A DNA stretch of 54,451 nucleotides, counting the filler, from Sphacelaria rigidula (taxonomy: Eukaryota), in assembly GCA_964200075.2 (NCBI GenBank). It is 3 parts of 3 records of this genome, joined end to end, with 100 filler letters (N's around TTAATTAATTAA, not from the genome) between each part and the next. Parts side by side here need not be neighbours in the genome. Positions count along the whole stretch, not along the records: positions 18,188 to 36,272 come from CAXNAA020000923.1; 2 more parts are not named here. The stretch is one strand, 5' to 3'. Shown piece after piece: positions 18,088-52,145 of the stretch; position 1 is the stretch's first letter, and each line of letters opens with the position of its first letter. A program made the translations under genes and the position numbers. The notes under the pieces were generated by a model. It was not told the DNA's origin, made no database searches, and saw nothing but the letters and a program-made list of their open reading frames with translations.

Positions 18088-18187
18088 NNNNNNNNNNNNN
18101 NNNNNNNNNNNNNNNNNNNNNNNNNNNNNNNTTAATTAATTAANNNNNNNNNNNNNNNNNNNNNNNNNNNNNNNNNNNNNNNNNNNN
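18088..18187. other. Artificial 100-nt contig spacer
   Basis: 44 N + TTAATTAATTAA (stops in all six frames) + 44 N. Confidence 0.97.
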
Positions 18188-20091
18188 AGGCGAGTATGCA
18201 TTGAGTGTTGAGCGGGGGGGTGATAGTCAGCAGGGTGAGGGCGAACCGTGGATATTTGACACGGGGGCTACCCAGCATTTCTCCCACGATTCCCATGGGA
18301 TGACGGAGTACAGAGAGTACAAGGGTAGGGTACTCCGGTGCACCGGAGGTAGCACTTACCCCATCGTGGGCAGAGGAAATTTGTCTCTTGCCTTCAGATC
18401 ATCTGACGGACAAGATGTATCCCTAAAACTAGTAGATGTTGACCATGTACCTGGTGTCCGTCATAACCTCTTGTCTCTCACGGGGGTCCAATACATGGGA
18501 CACACCCTACACTGGTTTTCGTGATGATTTCAGGGTAGATCTCAATTCAGGCAATAGACTGATGATACCCGGACAACCACGGGAACTCAGAATGTACGCC
18601 CGCCGCCTCAATCAAAGTGGTAGTGAGAAGTGTGCTTCGGCATATGTTGTTATTGCCCCGGGGGCTCCGCCTAGCCCCCAGACCGCTGGCATCAACGAGT
18701 TCCACGAGTTCCCACGCTCACGTCCACGAGGATTTACTGAGGAAGACGGCGAAGCAGCAGGGAAAGCGGCTGGCTGGGGAGCTGCAGCCCTGCCGCGGCT
18801 GCTCAGGGGCGAAGGGATTGCGGGCACCGATTCCAAGATCGACGCACACGAGAGCAGCCAAGTCAGCGTCTAAGGTGTTCGTAGATCTTTCCGGGCCGAA
18901 ACCAGTCAAGTCTAACGGGGGACAGCCGTACACGATGATTGTCCGAAATGATCAGTCACGGCACACGAAGCTGTATTTTCTCCGTGAGAAGGATGAGGTA
19001 GAGAGATACTTCGCGAAATACATTGCATGGGTCTCTCCGAGAAAAATTGAGATAGTCCGTAGCTATGATGGGGGTGAATTTTCGGAGGGTGCATTTGGTG
19101 AACTGTGCGACAGGGAAAAGATCAAGCAAGCGATCAAGGGATCAAGCGGTGTTGCTCGATCCTCGCGAGTTGCGGAGCGTCGCCGGCCCCCCCGCCATCT
19201 TGCGAGGGATCCGTGGAGGAGGGTGTCAGTGCGGGCGACGAGGCAGTGTCCGATGCCGATGTGAGCGTCGGCGTAGGTGTCGGCGTCTGCACTGATGTTG
19301 GCGCTGATGATGATGATGATGATTCCGGCTCCACCTCACCCCCTCCGTTGACAAAATCTGGAACGGGGATCTCTGGTATTACCCCGCTTTCGACCGCAGA
19401 TTGTGTCGGGACACAGGGGAAACCAAGCTTTTTGTTTTGTACGAGGATAACGAGGGAGCAAAAGCTCTGACCGAGAATCCTCTCAGCCCCGAAAGGAGTA
19501 AGCACATAGGCGTGAGATATCACTTCATTCGAGAGCTGGTGGGGACGGGGAAAATCAGGGTTGTACATGTAGGCTCAGGATGGCAGCATGCAGATATTTT
19601 GACAAAGCCTCTTTCGATCAGCCTGTTACGAGGCACAGACGTTTTTTTATGAACTTGGAAGGTGACAAGTAGGTACGAATTTCGTTGTGTACCATTGTGC
19701 TCGTGCGGGGTATTTTTAGATGTTCGAGTGATGCATTTATGCGCATTTTGGGTTAAGCCACCCACGCTACTTTGAGGGGCATGGGCTTTGTAGGGCGTTT
19801 CCCGACATGTCGTGTATCTGCCTCGACCGGCGTCCATGGATTATCTAGATGGAGCACAAGCCGTTGAGGGGAAGGGGTTTTTGCCCGGATGGCCGGGTTT
19901 CCCCCTTGAAACTTTGTTTTTTTTTAGAGGAAAAGCCACGACGACTGATGTACCGGTTCAGAGGGGGTGATCATGTGAACAGGTGCACTGAGTGAGCATG
20001 CAAACGTGCGGGTACTGGTAGTCGAGTGTGTGTGACTACAGTATCCCGCTCATGGCAGCTCGGTAACTGCCATGAGCGCTCACTCTCAACA
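18188..20091 (+). mobile_element. Ty1/Copia LTR retrotransposon, 5'-truncated by the contig edge, RT missing, with a putative 3' LTR
   Basis: Protease WIFDTGATQH; pre-integrase HAHVHEDLLRKTAK...CRGC; integrase VFVDLSGP...IVRSYDGGEF; RNase H end YEDNEGAKAL...RSKHIGVRYHFIRELV...QHADILTKPL; PPT AGAGGGGG at 19960-19967 then TG...TCAACA (19968-20091). Frameshifts are present. Confidence 0.92.
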
Positions 20092-31786: not shown

Positions 31787-32973
31787 CGAGCTGGGCCATC
31801 TGAGAAGCGATTACATATAGAGTTGGACCCTGAAATTTGGTGTGGACAGTGAATGGGGCAAAAAAACAAGAATTACCAGTGCACACCAGATTTTTTTTTC
31901 CATGAGTCAGGGGCATTTCACCGATATCTGAAAACTGATTATTGCCCTTAACTCATGAAAAAAGAGATAAAGCCCCTGTGTGCACCAGCAATTTCTTTTA
32001 TTATGCCCTCTTCATTGTCCATACCAAAGTTCAGGGTCGAACTCTAAGTATTGGCCGTATGATGAGCCGTTCGGTGACGTTATCAGAAGAAATTCGGAAC
32101 AGGATTTTGCAGGCCACTTACCGGCCCACGTTTGATGTTTGTGCATTGAAACTTTGTGTGGGCCATGGCTAGGGCATCAATGACGAAACGAAGTGAGCCG
32201 GGTTGATTTTTTCTCACTTTTTCACTGCTTGAGGGCGTTTTAGTATAGAAACCGCCATTTTTCAACGAGAACACCCGAACCTCTGCCGAAAAAGAAAACT
32301 GAGGGCTCATTTTATTTTTTTAATTAAGCATACCTCTGTGGTTCTTTATCGGGAGTTTTATATCAGAATTCTAAAAATTGAGCTCAAAAATTGAGTTGAG
32401 GCCCAAAAGCAGTGTTCATTTCTCCTCAAAACTGCGCCAAAAACCTGAAAACAAAATGAAATAAAACGAAATAATTGAAAAAGCTGTGTTTAGAAGCTTT
32501 ATTATGCACTAGCGGTTCTACATACGACAAGTTCCAGCATAACCCTCAAAACCGGAGACGCGATATTCAGGTTTAGCTAATCTAGCACATCTGCTTGTAA
32601 TGTACTGATTTTAGTATAAAAACTTATGTGCGCCATACCTCGAGATAGATTACGCCTTAAGTGGAGGGGAGGGTATCTATCCTCTCCCCGTGCTCCAGGG
32701 AATGTCCACACCAAAATTCGTCGTCATCCGCTGAATGCATCGATCGGGGGTTCCATAGAGATTTTAATATGGACGCTATCTCCCTCAGGTATAGAAATTA
32801 CTCGACATGGGGTTTAATCAACGAGAAAATATGGGCCCAAAAGTTTGAACAGATGGGCACCTTCCCCTCATGGTGAGACGATTAATACAATATGCGGATC
32901 ATGGCCCAATTCGTCCGTGTCGACGAGTTATTGCTTTGAGGGCTTCAATCCGTGTCTAGGCTGGCCCAGCTCG
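31787..32973. mobile_element. Tc1/mariner-type non-autonomous element, family C, copy 1
   Basis: TIR CGAGCTGGGCCA...TGGCCCAGCTCG followed by TA (left flank CA). Colinear with 48900-50106, e.g. TACTGATTTTAGTATA.AAC.TTATGTGCGCCAT and AGATGGGCACCTTCCCCT. Internal palindrome at 31818-32047. Confidence 0.85.
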
Positions 32974-33086
32974 TACCATTTTTTTATTCTTTTCAACCTT
33001 CGACTCACAACAACCTCCAGGTGTTTGTCGATCATGCTACCGCAGGTGAGTAGTCTTCGACGAAGCACCACGCAAAAGAGGAGCTG

Positions 33087-36000
33087 ATGGCCGACGTCAC
33101 GCAAATAGAGTGCATCAACGAGGGCTGCTGCAAGAAATCAGCGTTTGGTGCAGCAGGAAGCAAGAAGGCGGAGTTTTGCTCCGAGCATGCCCGGGCGGGA
33201 ATGATTTATATGATGAGCGAAAAGTGCGGCGACAAGGGCTGCTCGATCATTCCGTCCTTCGGTGTAGCGGGAAGCAGGAAGACGGAGTTCCTCTCCAAGC
33301 ACGCCAGAGCTGGAATGAATAATATGACCAGCAAAAAGTTCGGCGATCAGGGCAGCTCCACCCAGCCGTCGTATGGTAAAGCCGGAGGGGGGAAGGCGGA
33401 GTTCTGCTCCAACCATGCCAGGGCGGGAATGGCGAGTATGAAGAGCAAGAAGTGCGGCGACGAGGGCTGCTCCACCCACCCGTCGTATGGTATAGCCGGA
33501 GGCAGGAAGGCGGAGTTCTGCGCCAAGCATGCCACGGTGGGCATGGTGAATGTGGTGAGCAGGAAGTGCGGCGACGGCGGCTGCTCCAAGCAGCCCTCGT
33601 TTGGTGTAGCGGGGAGCAAAAAGGCGGAGTTCTGCGCTAAGCATGCCAAGGCGGGAATGGTGAATTGTTCAAAACAACGTGCGGCGACGAGGGCTGCTTC
33701 ACGCATCCGTCGTATGGTGTAGCGGGAAGCAAGAAGGCGCGGTTCTGCTCGAAGCATGCCAGCGCGGGAATGGTAAATGTAGTGGACAAGAGGAGGGTCG
33801 ACGAGGACTGCTCCACGCATCCGTCGTTCGGCGTAGCGGGGAGCAAAAAGGCGGAGGTTTGCTCCAAGCATGCCAGGGCGGGAATCTTGAATGTGATCAA
33901 CACGACGTGCGGCGACGAGGGCTGCTCCAAGCAGCCGTCGTTTGGTGTAGCGGGAAGCAAAAAGGCGGAGTTCTGCTTTAGGCATGCTAAGGCGGGCATG
34001 GTGAATGTGGTCAAGAGGAAGTGCGGCGACGAGGGCTACTCCAAGCAGCCGTCGTATGGTGTATTACGGAGCACGCAGGCGGAGTTCTGTTCGAAGCATG
34101 CTCGGGCGGAAATGGTGAATGTGGTGAGCAGAAAATGCGGTGACGGGAGCTGCCCGAAGCAGCCGTTGTATGGTGTAGCGGGAAGCAAGGAGGCGGAATT
34201 CTGCTTTAAGCATGACAGAGCGGGCATGGTAAATGTGGTGGGCAAGAAGTGCGGCGACGAGGGCTGCTCCAAGCAGCCGTCGTTTGGTGTAGCGGGGAGC
34301 AAAAGCCGGAGTTCTGCTCCGAGCATGCCAGGGCGGGCATGGTGAGTGTGAAGCGCAAGCCGTGCGACCAGGAGGGATGCTCCATCATTCCGTCGTATGG
34401 TGTAGCGGGAAGCAAGAAGGCGGAGTTCTGCTCCAAGCATGCCAGAACGGGAATGATTCATTTCAGACACAAGGCGTGCAGCGACGAGGGCTGCTCCATG
34501 CATTCGTCGTTCGGCGTAGCGGGGAGCAAGAAGGCGGATTTCTGCTTTAGGCATGCTAGGGTGGGCATGGTGAATGTGAAAAACATGACGTGCGGCGACA
34601 GGGGATGCACCATCATTCCGTCGTTTGGTGTAGCGGGGAGCAAGAAGGCGGAGTTCTGCCTTAGGCATGCTAGGGCGGGTATGGTAAAAATGTGAAAAAC
34701 ATGACGTGCGGCGACGAGGGCTGCTCCATGCAGCCGTCGTATGGTGTAGCGGGGAGTAAAAAGGCGGAGTTCTGCCCTAGGCATGCTAGGGCGGGCATGG
34801 TGAATGTGAAAAACACAACGTGTGGCGACGAGGGCTGCTCCAAGCAGCCGTCGTATGGTGTAGCGGGGAGCAAAAAGGCGGAGTTCTGCCTTAGGCATGC
34901 TAGGGCGGGCATGGTGAATGTGAGAAACACGACGTGCGGCGACGAGGGCTGCTCCAAGCAGCCGTCGTATGGTGTAGCGGGAAGCAGGAAGGCGGAGTTC
35001 TGCTCCGAGCATGCTAGGACGGGCATGGTGAATGTGGTGGGCAGAAAGTGCGGCGACGAGGGCTGCTCCAAGCAGCCGTCGTATGGTGTAGCGGGGAGCA
35101 AGAAGGCGGAGTTCTGCGCCAAGCATGCCAAGGCGGGCACGGTGAATGTGGTGAAGAGGAAGTGCGGCGACAAGGAATGCTCCAAGCAGCCGTCGTATGG
35201 TGTAGCGGTAAGCAAAAAGGCGGAGTTCTGCTTTAGGCATGCTAGGGCGGGCATCGTGTATAGGGTGAAAAGGAGGTGCGGGGACGAGGGCTCCTCCACG
35301 CAGCCGTCGTATGGTGTAGCGGGGAGTAAAAAGGCGGAGTTCTGCTTTAGGCATTCTGAGGCGGGCATGGTAGATATGGTAAACAGGAAGTGCGAGGACG
35401 AGGACTGCTCCAAGCGGCCGTCGTATGGTGTAGTGGGAAGCAAGAAGACGGAGTTCTACTCCACGCATGCCAGGGCGGGCATGGTGAATGTGGTGAGCAG
35501 GAAGTGCGGCGACAAGGGCTGCTCCAAGCAGCCGTCGTATGGTGTACCAGGAAGCAAGAAGGCGAAGTTCTGCTCCGAGCATGCCAGGACTGACATGGTG
35601 AATGTGAAAAACACGAGGTGCGGCGACAAGGAATGCGTTGCATCGGATATCTCCAGGAAACGCAGTCTTGATGCACAGCTCTGTCAACAGCATGCTACTG
35701 CACACAATACAGCTACTGTGCGCAACACTGCGGAGCTCAACACTGGGGTGACCGCCTGACGGCGGATAGTGGAGGAATCGTTGCTGATGTACGAGGAGCC
35801 AAGCGCCATTGCGCAGCATACCCTGGGTCTAGTGCAACAGACTGTGTTGGTGTTCGCCCCAAAGTGTGCCCCGGTCCCAGACGTGGTAGTACAACACCAC
35901 CGGTGCTCTTAGGACAGCTGCCCGTAGGGGACCATGGTGAGGCGTCTCCAGGGGCAAAAGCGGGGGCAGGAATGAAGGTAGAGCTGGCCGTCTCTTCTGC

Positions 36001-36256
36001 TCCTTATCATTGGGATGGAATGAAAGAGTTCAGCGGGCGGGCTGCTTCTTCGCATGGTTGGAGCAGCGTAGGAGGTAATGGTAGCTCCAGCGGGAGCGGC
36101 AGTCGTGGTGTGAGTATGAGACGGGTATGTGGTTCGCCAGCAGTGGTATCTGGGTGTGCTGGTACGTTTGAGAGTGTACCCCAAGCTCCAATTTCACGGT
36201 ACTGCTTTCATAGCTATTATGAAAGCATCGCGGCTTCGGATAAGGGCATTTCATAG
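33087..36256 (+). pseudogene. EsV-1-7 cysteine-rich repeat protein: 23 x 38-aa repeats plus C-terminal tail, frameshifted as assembled
   Basis: 114-bp tandem units encode CGDEGC-SKQPSYGVAGSKKAEF-CSKH-ARAGMVNV, the C-X4-C-X16-C-X2-H EsV-1-7 motif. Split across ORFs 33087-33722, 33665-34345, 34249-34695 and 34692-35759, plus an open tail frame ~35756-36256. Indels near 33667 (-1), 34305 (-1), 34688 (+2) and probably ~35750. Several units have lost a Cys. Confidence 0.9.
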
Positions 36257-36272: not shown

Positions 36273-36372
36273 NNNNNNNNNNNNNNNNNNNNNNNNNNNN
36301 NNNNNNNNNNNNNNNNTTAATTAATTAANNNNNNNNNNNNNNNNNNNNNNNNNNNNNNNNNNNNNNNNNNNN
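36273..36372. other. Artificial 100-nt contig spacer
   Basis: 44 N + TTAATTAATTAA + 44 N, identical to 18088-18187. Confidence 0.97.
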
Positions 36373-36510
36373 CGGTGCTTCGTCTCGGAAGGGATGCGTG
36401 GTCAATGGTCAAACGACTAAGGCAAGCAACAAATGAGAACGCCCCCCTTCCCCTCACCCTTCCCCTACCCATCCTGCCCACCGCCGCTGTAATGAAATCA
36501 CAACCGATAG

Positions 36511-48899: not shown

Positions 48900-50106
48900 C
48901 AGGCTGGGCCAGCCTACAAGGGGATTTGTACTTTGTAGGCGAATTCGCAATTTTTTCTTGGAGTTGGAAAGTGAAATTTGGTATGGACAATCAACAGGGC
49001 ATGAAGAAAAGCTGTCTGTGAGGTCCCAACGATTTTTTTTTGTTTTCGTGAGTTAAGGGCATCTTACCAAACCTCGAAACTGATTTTTGCCCTTAATTCA
49101 CGAAAACAAAAAATCACCGGAACCTCACAGACAGCTTTTCTTCATCCCCGGTTGATTGCCCATACCAAATTTCACTTTCCAACTCCAAGACGAAAATTGC
49201 GAATTTACCTTTGAAAAACCGAGGCGACGGAAATTCGGAACAATATTTTGTAGGCCGTTTATCGGCCCACGTTTGGTGTTTGTGAGATTAAACCTTTGTG
49301 CGGGACCTTGCTAGGTCGTGATGAACGAAGAAAAGTGGGTGAGGGTGGGTTTTATTGTTTTTTTTCACTGACTGAGGGCGTTTTAGTCTGGTAGAGATGA
49401 CTTTTTTACGAGAACGCTCGAACCTCTCATGACGAAAAAAATGAAGCCCCGTTTTTTTTTTACTCAGCAAACCTTTGTCGTTTTCCATGCCAAGTTTTAA
49501 ATCACAATTCTAAAAATTGAGCTGAAAAATTGAGCTAAAGTCCAAGAGCAACGTTCATTTGTCCTCAAAACCCCCCAAAAAACACAAAAAAAGATGAGAA
49601 AAAAACAAAAAAAAACGGAAAAGCTGCGTTTTTTTTTTCATCGTGCACCAGCGGTTCTCCATACCAAATTTCATAGCACAACTCTCAAAAACTGAGACGC
49701 GATATCCAGTTTGAGGTCATCTAGTGCCCCTGCTCATAATATACTGATTTTAGTATAGAACCTTATGTGCGCCATTTCTCGAGATAGATGACGAATTAGG
49801 TGAAAGTGAGGGTATCTATTGTCTCCCCGTGCTCCAGGGAAGGTCCATACCAAAAATCGTCATCTGCTTGATCGATCGTTCGGGGTTTCATATAGATTTT
49901 AGTGTGGACGCTATCTCCGCTAGGTAAAGGAATTACTATACATGAGGTTTACTCGACGAGAAAAAATTGGCCCAGATTTTTGAGCAGATGGGCACCTTCC
50001 CCTTGATTAGACAATTAATACGATATGCGGATCACGGCCCAACTCGTCTGTGTCGTTGAGATATCGCTTTTAGAGCTTAAATCCGTTTTTAGGCTGGCCC
50101 ACCTCG
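48900..50106. mobile_element. Family C mariner-type element, copy 2, in ispE intron 1
   Basis: TA|CAGGCTGGGCCAGCCTA ... TAGGCTGGCCCACCTCG|TA. Homologous to 31787-32973. Internal palindrome at 48941-49206. Confidence 0.87.
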
Positions 50107-52145
50107 TACACATCACGGATCTTACACCTCCAGCATTGTTTTGGAACATTATCATCGGCTGACCATCTAGGAGTTTCCATTATTTGAGGGGGGGGCGTGC
50201 CGGCTCCCCAATCGCCAGGGAACGCGTCCCAGATCAACCATACGTGTTTCCAGGAAAATTCTAGGTCAGACAGCAGGTCTCAAGAGGTCTAGTGACTATT
50301 TTGGTAGTTGCGGACGGCGGAGTGATCACTTATTGTACCCTCCTCTTGAAGTACTGATATCGCACTCAATCTACCCGAATTTTTTATTTTTGGGGTAGAG
50401 CTAATATTCGGGTGTGATACCCGGGGACTCAAGAGTACATGCCCTACCCGACCTGCCCATGACAAAATGGTATGTTGTCGCTCCTTGAATGACACGATGA
50501 TTTTCGAAAGCTCGAATCTTCCCCGCCCCAGTGTTTCGGGACGAGTTATTGTGCTGCAAGCAACAGCGAAGGTTTTGTAAAAGACTCTCCTAAACTTATA
50601 TCCTGAGATCCAGGGAAAGTAGCTCTCACCAACTCTGTTGTGGGGCAAAAACTGACATCGCCCGACTTCCCCGACTTGAGGTGGACCTGTATTTGACCGT
50701 GTAAACAAACGATCTCTCAACCATCGAAGCACGGTCAAAACGGAGGGGTTTTGATATCTCTGCGCAGCCTTTGCCATCTGCCTACCCCTTCGCGTGTTGT
50801 AGCGAGCTGCGCATTGTTGCTGCAGTACACTCAGCGGGAATGGATATAGCGTATATTGTATGATGTGCTGTGTGCAGTGAAGAGCAAGGACATCGTACTG
50901 CTCTGTTTGTTGTATGCAGCGGCGATGAAGAAAGTCGATCTGTAGGGTACAACAACAGCACGGTACCATAGAGTGCAGTTGGGATGATTTCATACGCCAT
51001 GCAACATCAGAACATTCAGGAGGTGCATCAGCAACGCCCTGAAAGTACCGGGACTGAACAAGCAAGGCAGAGAGTAATTTGGTAGCCAGCTTGCACGAAT
51101 AACTTGTGCATGACAGCATGTACCGCCCCCTGAGCAAAACAAGACGTGTACACACACCTTGCTTGGCCAGAAAAAACGGCCTGGTGTCCTCATGAACTGA
51201 TTTCCATACGGACGCTCAACATCCTCTTGTTTGTATAAACAGGGGTGTCGTGCCACTTGAAAAACAACAGATCCAAAGCCAAAATTGACCATTAGCAATT
51301 TCGGGCGGCTGGAGGTCAAGGGGTTAACTCCTTGAGCGCCGAGACTTCCTGTTACGATAATCCGGCCTGACAGTGGCGCCGATTCGGAATATGGCAATTG
51401 TATGCGTTGATAGTCCTTTGTGACCCGTGGGCGCTAAAGCAGACAGAATACAAGTTTCCTTTGCAAGTATCGCAAGTATTATAGTCCACGTCCATGGTTG
51501 ACCGGAGGGGTTGGAGTTTCGGAGGCCTCTATATCACAATGCATAGCATTCGCAGCTGCAGCTGCCGAAGGCTCCGTCAGCACATTGGCTGCACTCGCAA
51601 CACCTCCGTATCCCGTAGAGATTGCTCTGTACTCTGCACTGAATATGGCACGGATATGCGCGCGGGAACGACCCGGCGGGCCTATGCCCTCCTGTTTTAA
51701 TGTAGGCAATGTGTCTCTTTTACTGGAACAACTATTCCGAATCCCCCCAAACAGCCAAGCCAACAGAGGCCACCTGCACAAGTGGGTGCTACAAGGGTCG
51801 GCTTTTTCTTTAAGGAGTTACACCCCGTCCTCTGGCCGGTTGTTTTGGGGAAAATGCGGAGTTCTCACAGTTGTTTCCAAGCCACATACGGATTCATCAT
51901 ATGCCAGGCAGCGCTCAGCATTTTTCTTTTCAGGATAAGGAGTTAGTACACGTGAGATATGATGGAAGATAATAGGGTAGGCCTTTTCTCTCCCGATTTA
52001 GAGGTCTTGAGAGTATGGCTCCCGGGAAATGTCGCTAAGGCCCTCCTTGCTTTTCAATGATGAAATTCAAACTTTTTCACAATCGCTGTCAAACCCCCCT
52101 CCGTGCTCCGGCCGCCTCCTTTCTGTATGTATTGGGTTGAGTCAG

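What the first reader, a model, noticed from the sequence alone, without database searches (positions are those of the whole stretch)
33087..35700. Intronless EsV-1-7 array with TALE/PRDM9-like variable positions
Seen: 23 tandem 114-bp units share a largely constant scaffold (GDEGC, PS[YF]GVAGS[KR]KAEFC, HARAGMVNV). Recurrent variation clusters in three patches: the residues before Cys1 (VSRK, KNTT, VKRK, VGKK, KNMT), the triplet after Cys2 (SKQ, SII, STH, STQ, SMQ, SKR) and the CxxH pair (SE, SK, AK, FR, LR, PR). The same states recur in different combinations. Established: EsV-1-7 is a C-X4-C-X16-C-X2-H repeat shared by brown algae (IMMEDIATE UPRIGHT family) and the phaeovirus EsV-1; I know of no established ligand. 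Inference: this may be a modular Zn-binding array with a per-repeat recognition code for nucleic acid or a repetitive ligand, diversified by recombination, possibly in host-virus conflict.
Basis: partly seen in the sequence, partly recalled or inferred. Interest (0 to 1): 0.8.

Follow-up and report, generated by a model that had tools for sequence, protein, structure and literature searches.

The report
Decayed 23-repeat EsV-1-7 zinc-motif gene
This is an unusually long but broken copy of a known brown-alga and giant-virus cysteine-rich repeat gene family, and its variable positions change at about the neutral rate, not in a TALE- or PRDM9-like way.

Summary
Window 33111-35732 (+) carries 22 canonical units plus one degenerate terminal unit of 114 bp (38 aa). 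Each unit reads C-x4-C-x16-C-x2-H plus a 12-aa linker and matches Pfam PF19114 EsV_1_7_cys (E=1e-125).

The locus is a pseudogene. It has three frameshifts inside the array. A fourth cuts off a C-terminal tail conserved in 13 Sphacelaria rigidula homologues. Seven Zn-ligand substitutions affect six units. A dispersed repeat ends 110 bp upstream of the ATG. Independent contigs of the same organism show two of the array frameshifts. A ~1% diverged genotype lacks those two but has its own stop codon.

- Units differ by 22% of bases (pS 0.30).
- Patch codons change at about the synonymous rate (omega 1.0-1.2, P=0.06).
- Scaffold codons have omega 0.54.
- In intact giant-virus orthologues, patches are under purifying selection (omega 0.33).

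Units are mosaics (linkage decays with distance), so recombination is plausible. Basic patches and literature hints fit an ancestral nucleic-acid-binding array, which is untested.

Verdict: new member of a known kind, low-to-moderate interest.

The parts
31820..32976 (.). Dispersed repeat (transposon-like) that ends 110 bp upstream of the ATG
   Evidence: 74% identical over 1185 bp to window 48961-50109. Summed contig depth is 1e4-1e5 times that of single-copy flanks. Loose ends at 32975-32977 appear in all four runs laid.
33021..33053 (+). Possible remnant of a further unit upstream of the ATG, in frame with it, closed by a stop at 33051-33053
   Evidence: The frame translation reads like the F-C-x-x-H-A-x-A-G end of a unit, one residue short, followed by a stop. 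Weak evidence from the sequence only.
33087..33110 (+). ATG and 8-residue leader before Cys1 of unit 1
33111..35618 (+). 22 canonical EsV-1-7 units (u01-u22) of 114 bp each: C-x4-C-x16-C-x2-H plus a 12-aa linker
33665..33666 (+). Frameshift 1: one base missing in the linker of u05 (frame 0 to 2)
   Evidence: Unit alignment, three-frame translation and local context. Not informed by the laid runs.
34299..34302 (+). Frameshift 2: one base missing in an A run at codon 18 of u11 (frame 2 to 1)
   Evidence: Contigs of runs X1 and X4 agree with the window. One contig of run X3 has an extra A there.
34687..34688 (+). Frameshift 3: two extra bases in the linker of u14 (frame 1 to 0)
   Evidence: X1 agrees with the window. 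One X3 contig lacks the two bases.
35619..35732 (+). Degenerate terminal unit u23 (C-x4-C-x15-C-x2-H), also present in the Sphacelaria rigidula homologues
35748..35759 (+). Frameshift 4 (about 35748-35752) and the resulting frame-0 stop at 35757-35759
   Evidence: Homologues align without a gap in the protein to 35505-35747 in one frame and to 35750-36172 in another. X1 and X3 contigs spanning 35517-36225 have no gaps, so this shift is shared.
35750..36256 (+). C-terminal non-repeat tail, now out of frame with the array (ORF 35672-36256)
   Evidence: 39-46% identical to the tails of 13 homologues, all named Sphacelaria rigidula. 10 of the 13 carry a KRKR or KRRKR run where the window reads differently. 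No Pfam family.
33291..35459 (+). Seven Zn-ligand substitutions in six units: u02 Cys3>L (33291), u03 Cys1>F (33339) and Cys2>S (33354), u07 Cys1>R (33794), u09 Cys2>Y (34037), u20 Cys2>S (35292), u21 Cys3>Y (35457)

Best explanation
This is a pseudogenised, exceptionally long member of the known EsV-1-7 cysteine-rich repeat family (Pfam PF19114). It belongs to a subfamily that ends in a conserved non-repeat tail and is otherwise seen in Sphacelaria rigidula.

Shown: there are 23 units of 38 aa with the family's CCCH spacing. The gene carries four frameshifts and seven ligand substitutions, and a transposon-like repeat abuts its 5' end. A closely related genotype carries different disabling lesions.

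Inferred history: an ancestral gene grew by tandem duplication of units. The units then diverged for a long time (synonymous difference 0.30) under purifying selection on the Zn scaffold. The loops flanking the Zn ligands (positions 8-9, 24-25, 35-38) drifted at about the neutral rate and were reshuffled by gene conversion or unequal exchange between units. Finally the gene died.

Inferred ancestral mechanism: each unit folds round one Zn ion. Cys1 and Cys2 sit on a knuckle, and Cys3 and His sit at a short helical turn. The array forms a string of basic beads (net +3 per unit) that bound a polyanion, most likely nucleic acid, in the nucleus. The ligand is not shown by anything here.
For: Family membership:
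- PF19114 at E=1.3e-125.
- 38 aa is the family's modal spacing: 431 spacings, against 28 for the next most common value, 39.
- 6220 cluster representatives match at E<=1e-3.

Pseudogene:
- The frame runs 0>2>1>0 within the array.
- The tail homologous to 13 Sphacelaria proteins lies in another frame.
- Only 15 of 23 units keep a strict motif, and there are seven ligand substitutions.
- Contigs of runs X1 and X4 (same organism label) agree with the window at 34300. X1 also agrees at 34687.
- One contig of run X3 (another study, about 1% diverged) lacks both indels but has C>T at 34046. That change turns codon 9 of u09 into a stop.
- X3 shares the ungapped tail junction.
- AlphaFold2 confidence falls to 42-60 over u20/u21, which lost ligands, against about 90 over the intact u15-u19.

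Neutral-like patches:
- Tree-based counts give patches N/site 3.60 against S/site 3.55 (own) or 2.97 (global).
- The rest of the unit has omega 0.54 and the ligand codons 0.40.

Old, diverged units: mean base difference is 0.22 and the closest pair differs by 0.053.

Mosaic units.

Basic character: 140 K+R against 72 D+E in 22 units. In the patches it is 71 K+R against 6 D+E out of 198 residues.

Literature:
Against: - Frameshift 1 (33665/6) was not informed by any laid run.
- X1 may be the very sample the window was assembled from, so its agreement is not fully independent.
- The X3 variants each rest on a single contig (depth 17-26). They could in principle come from a close paralogue or a sister species rather than an allele.
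- The 16 X3 differences (6 synonymous, 10 non-synonymous) are too few to show relaxed constraint.
- Parsimony counts on a poorly resolved tree of 114-bp units, at about 3 changes per synonymous site, are saturated. Omega near 1 at the patches could therefore hide some positive selection. P=0.059 is close to the usual threshold.
- Zn binding, nuclear location and nucleic-acid binding are inferences. No solved structure resembles the model.
Confidence: 0.75

Rival explanations
1. The reader's reading, applied to the ancestral gene or to intact paralogues. The array is a modular reader in which the residues flanking the Zn ligands set a per-unit specificity for nucleic acid or a repetitive ligand. 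Units are shuffled by recombination. This locus is a fossil of such a reader.
For: - The eight most variable positions all lie within four residues of a ligand, so by chain geometry they surround the Zn site (inference).
- They are strongly basic or polar: 71 K+R against 6 D+E of 198.
- Patch states assort independently of each other. Patch C (24-25) and patch A (35-38) are also independent of the rest of the unit (Mantel r about 0). All 22 units carry a distinct combination.
- Linkage decays within the unit.
- In close algal homologue pairs the patches differ strongly between units (identity 0.08-0.40) but are 0.75 identical between the pair (206 of 274).
- In intact viral orthologues the patches are constrained (omega 0.33), as expected if unit-specific residues matter.
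- A transposase recruited the domain at its N-terminus (passage of PMC12477816).
Against: - There is no excess over the synonymous rate at the patches (omega 1.0-1.2, P=0.059, sites chosen post hoc).
- The scaffold is not homogenised as in TALE or PRDM9 arrays (pS 0.30).
- Scaffold positions also differ between units in other family members.
- Patches are only slightly less conserved than the scaffold between close homologues (0.75 against 0.83).
- No ligand is known, and no fold match to a nucleic-acid-binding finger was found.
- The one pair with patch omega 4 (L002 and L005) is explained by two replaced tracts, not by patch-specific change.
Confidence: 0.15
2. The gene is intact and functional, and the frameshifts are assembly or polishing errors in a repetitive region.
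For: - Frameshifts 2 and 3 lie in or beside A runs.
- The three array indels sum to zero (-1, -1, +2), so the first and last pieces share a frame.
- One X3 contig lacks indels 2 and 3.
Against: - Independent contigs of X1 (depth 83.5 and 46.5) and X4 (depth 17.6 at 34300) show the window's letters, with no contig carrying the alternative.
- Seven ligand-destroying substitutions cannot be indel errors.
- The fourth shift is present in X1 and X3 contigs without gaps.
- X3 has its own stop codon.
- Overall omega is 0.68 among units.
Confidence: 0.05
3. The array is viral cargo: part of an integrated phaeovirus or other giant-virus element rather than a host gene.
For: - The family is shared with giant viruses. 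19 IMG/VR loci encode relatives of homologue P0106.
- The literature treats the domain as virus-associated (passages of 10.64898/2026.04.27.720984).
- The gene has no intron.
Against: - No IMG/VR relative of this protein was found with its own peptide patterns.
- The ten longest flanking ORFs have no Pfam family, hence no viral hallmark.
- The nearest relatives (59-72% identity) carry the name of a brown alga, Sphacelaria rigidula.
- The flanks hold dispersed repeats typical of host DNA.
Confidence: 0.05

Closest known systems
EsV-1-7 domain family (Pfam PF19114; includes Ectocarpus IMMEDIATE UPRIGHT and the EsV-1 gene EsV-1-7)
   Same: The C-x4-C-x16-C-x2-H motif, the 38-aa period and tandem arrays with no other Pfam domain. 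The family is greatly expanded in brown algae (passages read).
   Different: This locus has 23 units, against at most 11 in the 260 best-scoring relatives retrieved. It is broken by four frameshifts. IMM's unique N-terminal domain was not looked for here.
Sphacelaria rigidula 'unnamed protein product' subfamily (P0002, P0004, P0005, P0010, P0011, P0015, P0022, P0035 and others)
   Same: 59-72% identity over the repeats. The same degenerate last unit and the same ~140-aa C-terminal tail, at 39-46% identity in 13 proteins.
   Different: Those proteins are 347-484 aa with single-digit unit counts and open frames. 10 of the 13 keep a KRKR-type basic run in the tail that the window has lost.
TALE repeats (Xanthomonas effectors)
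   Same: Tandem modules of similar size (34-35 aa in TALEs, recalled) with variation concentrated at a few positions.
   Different: TALE units are helical, bind no metal and are almost identical apart from two residues (recalled). Here the units differ at 22% of bases, with pS 0.30, are Cys/His-based and are modelled as short strands plus one helical turn.
PRDM9 / KRAB C2H2 zinc-finger arrays
   Same: Tandem Zn-binding modules. The variable residues lie next to the ligands. There are signs of exchange between units.
   Different: The ligand spacing is CCCH with a 16-residue loop, not C2H2. Only PF19114 and two sub-threshold families appear in the Pfam scan. There is no excess of non-synonymous change at the variable codons. 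The scaffold DNA is not homogenised.

Membership tests
EsV-1-7 (PF19114) | Match to the Pfam model above its gathering score | tested here: met
   409.3, 211.8 and 270.8 bits against a cut-off of 25, with 8, 5 and 6 stretches
EsV-1-7 (PF19114) | C-x4-C-x16-C-x2-H ligand spacing | tested here: met
   15 of 23 units match strictly. Six units fail by substitution of a ligand, one is cut by a frameshift and the last has x15.
EsV-1-7 (PF19114) | Tandem units at a 38-aa period | tested here: met
   The period here is 114 bp. 38 is the modal spacing in the 162 homologues retrieved at that point: 431 spacings, next 39 with 28.
EsV-1-7 (PF19114) | Zn binding by the four ligands | not testable with these tools
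   [quoted passage not shown] The AlphaFold2 models are confident but contain no metal.
TALE/PRDM9-like hypervariable repeat code | Repeat DNA nearly identical outside the specificity codons (concerted evolution) | tested here: not met
   Mean pairwise base difference is 0.22 (range of nearest neighbours 0.053-0.237). Synonymous difference is 0.30.
TALE/PRDM9-like hypervariable repeat code | Non-synonymous rate above synonymous rate at the variable codons | tested here: inconclusive
   Omega is 1.02 (own S) or 1.21 (global S), with Poisson P=0.059 on post-hoc sites and saturated counts. In four independent pairs of intact viral orthologues, patch omega is 0.33.
TALE/PRDM9-like hypervariable repeat code | One unit reads one element of a linear ligand | not testable with these tools
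   No ligand is known and model coordinates are not returned by the tools.
Functional protein-coding gene | One open reading frame through all homologous parts | tested here: not met
   Four frame changes. Two are confirmed in independent contigs of the same organism label.
C2H2 zinc finger | C-x2-4-C-x12-H-x3-5-H motif and beta-beta-alpha fold (recalled definition) | tested here: not met
   The ligand order here is C, C, C, H with a 16-residue loop, and no C2H2 family appears in the Pfam scan at E<=0.01. Fold comparison is inconclusive: best Foldseek E is 0.78 and best VIA Z is 3.1.

The most novel reading that the evidence does not exclude
EsV-1-7 arrays are a further kind of modular linear reader. 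The basic and polar residues flanking each unit's Zn ligands (positions 8-9 and 24-25, and the four residues before Cys1) would set a per-unit preference for nucleic acid. Unit identities would be kept by purifying selection between orthologues, and new combinations would be made by exchange between units. On this reading the locus is the fossil of a 23-unit reader, twice as long as any of the 260 relatives retrieved.
Probability: 0.15. Interest if true: 0.8.

Novelty: new member of a known kind. Interest (0 to 1): 0.27.

Why it matters
The EsV-1-7 family is among the largest expansions in brown-algal genomes, with 2018 proteins in 31 genomes (passage read). It includes a developmental regulator, yet no ligand or structure is known. 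This locus will not answer that question, because it is dead.

The analysis does give the family three things:
- A quantitative map of which unit positions vary.
- Evidence that these positions are constrained between orthologues yet unit-specific.
- Evidence that units exchange segments.

It also marks out a subfamily with a conserved tail and a KRKR run whose intact members would be good material for binding and structure experiments. For the scan, it shows that a tidy 'variable patches on a constant scaffold' pattern can arise from old, diverged repeats without any diversifying selection.

Tried and rejected
- Whole genome: none is held for this window.
- Earlier notes of the scan: nothing for this genome.
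- Sequence search of solved structures: 0 matches at E<=1.
- Fold searches:
  - 355-aa model: best Foldseek E 0.78. VIA-align wide gave 8 chains with Z>=2, best 3.1 (B-box, rmsd 3.6 over 41 residues).
  - 3-unit model: best Foldseek E 1.4. VIA gave one chain at Z 2.3.
  - All weak rows are small Zn domains. This shows neither that the fold is new nor what it is.
- IMG/VR with the window's own protein: no relative. With P0068: none.
- JGI metagenome contigs: the first call failed because alignment A1 had no conserved stretch. Alignment A3 found none and P0068 found none. No DNA of intact algal paralogues could therefore be obtained for site models.
- Flanking ORFs: the ten longest have no Pfam family.
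- RNA: no RNA holder is listed. Four runs are only guessed to be RNA. One of them (X6) has two exact low-depth contigs on the locus, which I do not count as evidence of expression.
- Depth over the array is dominated by paralogues and was not used.
- Macaisne et al. 2017 (Development 144:409) is not held. What I say of it comes from other papers' passages.
- Supplementary tables of the brown-alga genome paper (Table S17, the list of EsV-1-7 proteins) were not seen. They may list arrays as long as this one.
- The antisense ORF 34458-35828 (456 aa) was set aside as a by-product of the repeat's composition. It was not tested.
Full report
What is there

Window 33087-35759 (+) opens with an ATG and eight residues and then runs through 23 head-to-tail units of 114 bp. 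Tandem Repeats Finder reports period 114, 21.8 copies, 80% matches and score 2396. Cutting at each Cys1 codon gives 22 canonical units (33111-35618) and a degenerate last unit (35619-35732). Each unit encodes C-x4-C-x16-C-x2-H followed by a 12-residue linker. The open pieces match Pfam PF19114 (EsV_1_7_cys) at E=1.3e-125, 7e-64 and 2.5e-82. All 15 strict motifs found in the six frames of the whole window lie in this array. The eight highest amino-acid entropies among the 22 units fall at positions 8, 9, 24, 25 and 35-38. Non-synonymous changes are unevenly spread over the codons (chi2 77.7, 37 df, p=1e-4).

The locus is broken

- The reading frame moves 0>2>1>0 within the array. The causes are a missing base in u05 (33665/6), a missing base in an A run of u11 (about 34300) and two extra bases in u14 (34687-8).
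- Thirteen homologues, all named Sphacelaria rigidula, share the degenerate last unit and continue into a non-repeat tail of about 140 aa.
- In the window that tail (39-46% identity) is encoded at 35750-36172 in a different frame. It abuts the end of the frame-0 homology at 35747, so a fourth frameshift lies at about 35748-35752. The array frame stops at 35757.
- Seven substitutions remove a Zn ligand in six units.
- A dispersed repeat (31820-32976, 74% identical to 48961-50109) ends 110 bp before the ATG.
- A short in-frame remnant that looks like the end of another unit lies between the repeat and the ATG and is closed by a stop.

Are the frameshifts real?

I laid Logan contigs of four public runs on 32600-36250.
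- Runs X1 and X4 carry the same organism label as each other. X1 may be the source sample.
- X1 and X4 agree with the window at 34300. X1 also agrees at 34687. No contig carries an alternative.
- Run X3 comes from another study and is about 1% diverged. One X3 contig has an extra A at 34300 and another lacks the two bases at 34687. Two of the three array frameshifts are therefore absent in that genotype.
- Of the 16 substitutions X3 shows, 6 are synonymous and 10 are not. One (34046 C>T) turns codon 9 of u09 into a stop.
- X1 and X3 contigs cover 35517-36225 without gaps, so the tail frameshift is shared.

A shared lesion plus different private lesions in two close genotypes is the signature of a pseudogene, not of assembly error. 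Two caveats apply. Each X3 variant rests on one contig, and frameshift 1 was not informed.

The TALE/PRDM9 analogy

Those arrays combine nearly identical repeat DNA with an excess of amino-acid change at a few codons. Neither feature is seen here.
- Units differ at 22% of bases on average. The closest pair (u15 and u16) differs at 5.3%, and adjacency hardly matters.
- Pairwise synonymous difference is 0.30 and non-synonymous difference 0.20.
- I counted changes by parsimony on a FastTree tree of the 22 units. The nine patch codons have 77.5 non-synonymous changes on 21.5 sites (3.60 per site) and 19.5 synonymous changes on 5.5 sites (3.55 per site), giving omega 1.02.
- Against the global synonymous rate (2.97 per site), 63.8 non-synonymous changes are expected and 77.5 observed (one-sided Poisson P=0.059). 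The sites were chosen after seeing the data and the counts are saturated.
- The other 29 codons have omega 0.54 and the four ligand codons 0.40.

The scaffold was therefore under purifying selection for much of the units' history, while the patches drifted at about the neutral rate.

Recombination

- The three patches are not associated with each other. Patches C (24-25) and A (35-38) are also not associated with divergence in the rest of the unit (Mantel r between -0.11 and 0.07).
- Patch B (7-9) follows the rest of the unit (r=0.45, p=0.005).
- All 22 units carry a distinct combination of patch states.
- Of 629 pairs among 36 informative sites, 422 show all four gametes. Linkage falls from r2 0.20 within 5 bp to 0.06-0.09 beyond 30 bp (permutation p=0.001).
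- Local descent is also visible. The adjacent units u13-u16 share the xR pair and a KNxT/RNTT-type linker, and the xR pair is linked to the GCT or TCT codon at position 27.
- Recurrent mutation at this divergence also produces four-gamete pairs, so the decay of linkage is the stronger argument.

The family at large

- The family is very large: 6220 cluster representatives match at E<=1e-3 and 884 at E<=1e-30.
- The best-named relatives are Sphacelaria rigidula, Ectocarpus and Pylaiella proteins at 59-72% identity, and none is identical.
- Among the 260 relatives retrieved, a profile of the window's unit finds at most 11 units per protein. At 23 units this array is the longest seen here. The supplementary list of family members in the brown-alga genome paper was not available to me.
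- Over 429 units from 126 proteins, entropy by position correlates with the window's (Spearman 0.54; 0.59 for within-protein differences). Positions 2-4, 7, 14, 15, 28 and 29 are also variable family-wide but constant here. This fits a younger array in which only the fastest positions have diverged.
- Of six close algal or unnamed homologue pairs, five had strict units. In those five, patch residues are 0.75 identical (206 of 274) against 0.83 for the scaffold (620 of 750; Fisher p=0.009). Between units of one protein the patch identity is 0.08-0.40.
- DNA of intact arrays could be obtained only from giant-virus contigs of IMG/VR: 19 loci related to homologue P0106.
- Over four independent orthologous pairs of those loci, patch omega is 0.33 and scaffold omega 0.25, at dS 0.46.
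- One close pair (L002 and L005) gave patch omega 4. Its differences sit in two replaced tracts (residues 263-290 and 413-430) with multi-base codon changes, which indicates segment exchange rather than patch-specific selection.
- In intact arrays the patches are therefore constrained, not racing. These viral genes are only 30-40% identical to the window's protein, so the transfer to this subfamily is an inference.

Structure

- AlphaFold2 models u15-u19 at pLDDT about 90 and drops to 42-60 over u20-u21, which have lost ligands.
- A three-unit model has pLDDT 84.5.
- Both models place short strands at unit positions 12-14 and 31-33 and a helical turn at 24-26.
- No solved structure matches by sequence or clearly by fold.
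- Coordinates are not returned, so whether the patches share a face could not be tested. Because all nine patch residues lie within four residues of a ligand, they must surround the Zn site. This is an inference from chain geometry.

Mechanism

I commit to the following, with steps marked as shown or inferred.
- Shown: the array is a dead copy of an EsV-1-7 gene.
- Inferred: its ancestor was a string of Zn-bound mini-domains.
- Shown: the units are strongly basic, at net +3.1 per unit, and the patches hold 71 K+R against 6 D+E of 198 residues.
- Shown: 10 of 13 intact relatives have a KRKR-type run in the tail.
- Inferred: together these suggest a nuclear protein that binds a polyanion, most likely nucleic acid.
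- Literature: the domain is described only as a possible new class of zinc finger with no known function (passages). It has been recruited to the N-terminus of a Mariner transposase (passage), which fits DNA binding but does not show it.

Verdict

The Zn-module array and the recombination are supported. The hypervariable code and the host-virus conflict are not. The locus is a new, unusually long and decayed member of a known family. The modular-reader idea remains open for intact paralogues. I give it about 0.15, and it would be of high interest if it proved true.

Noticed in passing
window 18088-18187 and 36273-36372: Two N stretches have the same layout: 44 N, 12 bases, 44 N. Beside them, 36389-36455 is 94% identical to 18083-18019 in inverted orientation, so both gaps or masked stretches sit in copies of one repeated element.
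   Followed up: partly
window 18761-18952 (+): This stretch is 58% identical over 64 aa to the C-terminal end of P0147. P0147 is an Ectocarpus protein annotated with a retrotransposon gag-type family (PF14223) plus PF19114. The stretch is probably a retroelement fragment.
   Followed up: no
window 31820-32976 and 48961-50109: Two copies of a dispersed repeat are 74% identical over about 1.2 kb. The first ends where contigs of all four runs diverge (32975-32977) and has very high summed depth.
   Followed up: partly
window 34458-35828 (-): A 456-aa antisense ORF runs through the array, and several other antisense ORFs of 125-257 aa are present. They are most likely a by-product of the repeat's G+C-rich, stop-poor composition.
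   Followed up: no
L002 3001-4317 and L005 435-1748 (IMG/VR giant-virus contigs): Two orthologous EsV-1-7 genes are 95% identical in DNA. Their differences are concentrated in two short tracts (residues 263-290 and 413-430) with multi-base codon changes, as after segment replacement.
   Followed up: yes
homologues P0002, P0004, P0005, P0010, P0011, P0015, P0022, P0030, P0035, P0075 (tails): 10 of the 13 tail-bearing Sphacelaria rigidula homologues have a KRKR or KRRKR run in the tail, which resembles a nuclear localisation signal. The window's copy has lost it.
   Followed up: partly
unit positions 9 and 33 across five close homologue pairs: These positions differ often between units of one protein (0.76 and 0.59). 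They are nevertheless 0.90 and 0.97 identical between close homologues. Numbers are small (about 30 unit pairs), but they are candidates for unit-specific constraint.
   Followed up: no
proteins P0133, P0156, P0162: Some database proteins join EsV-1-7 repeats to other domains: a major-facilitator transporter in Monoraphidium neglectum, a very-short-patch-repair endonuclease annotation, and a reverse transcriptase. They could be real fusions or chimeric gene models.
   Followed up: no
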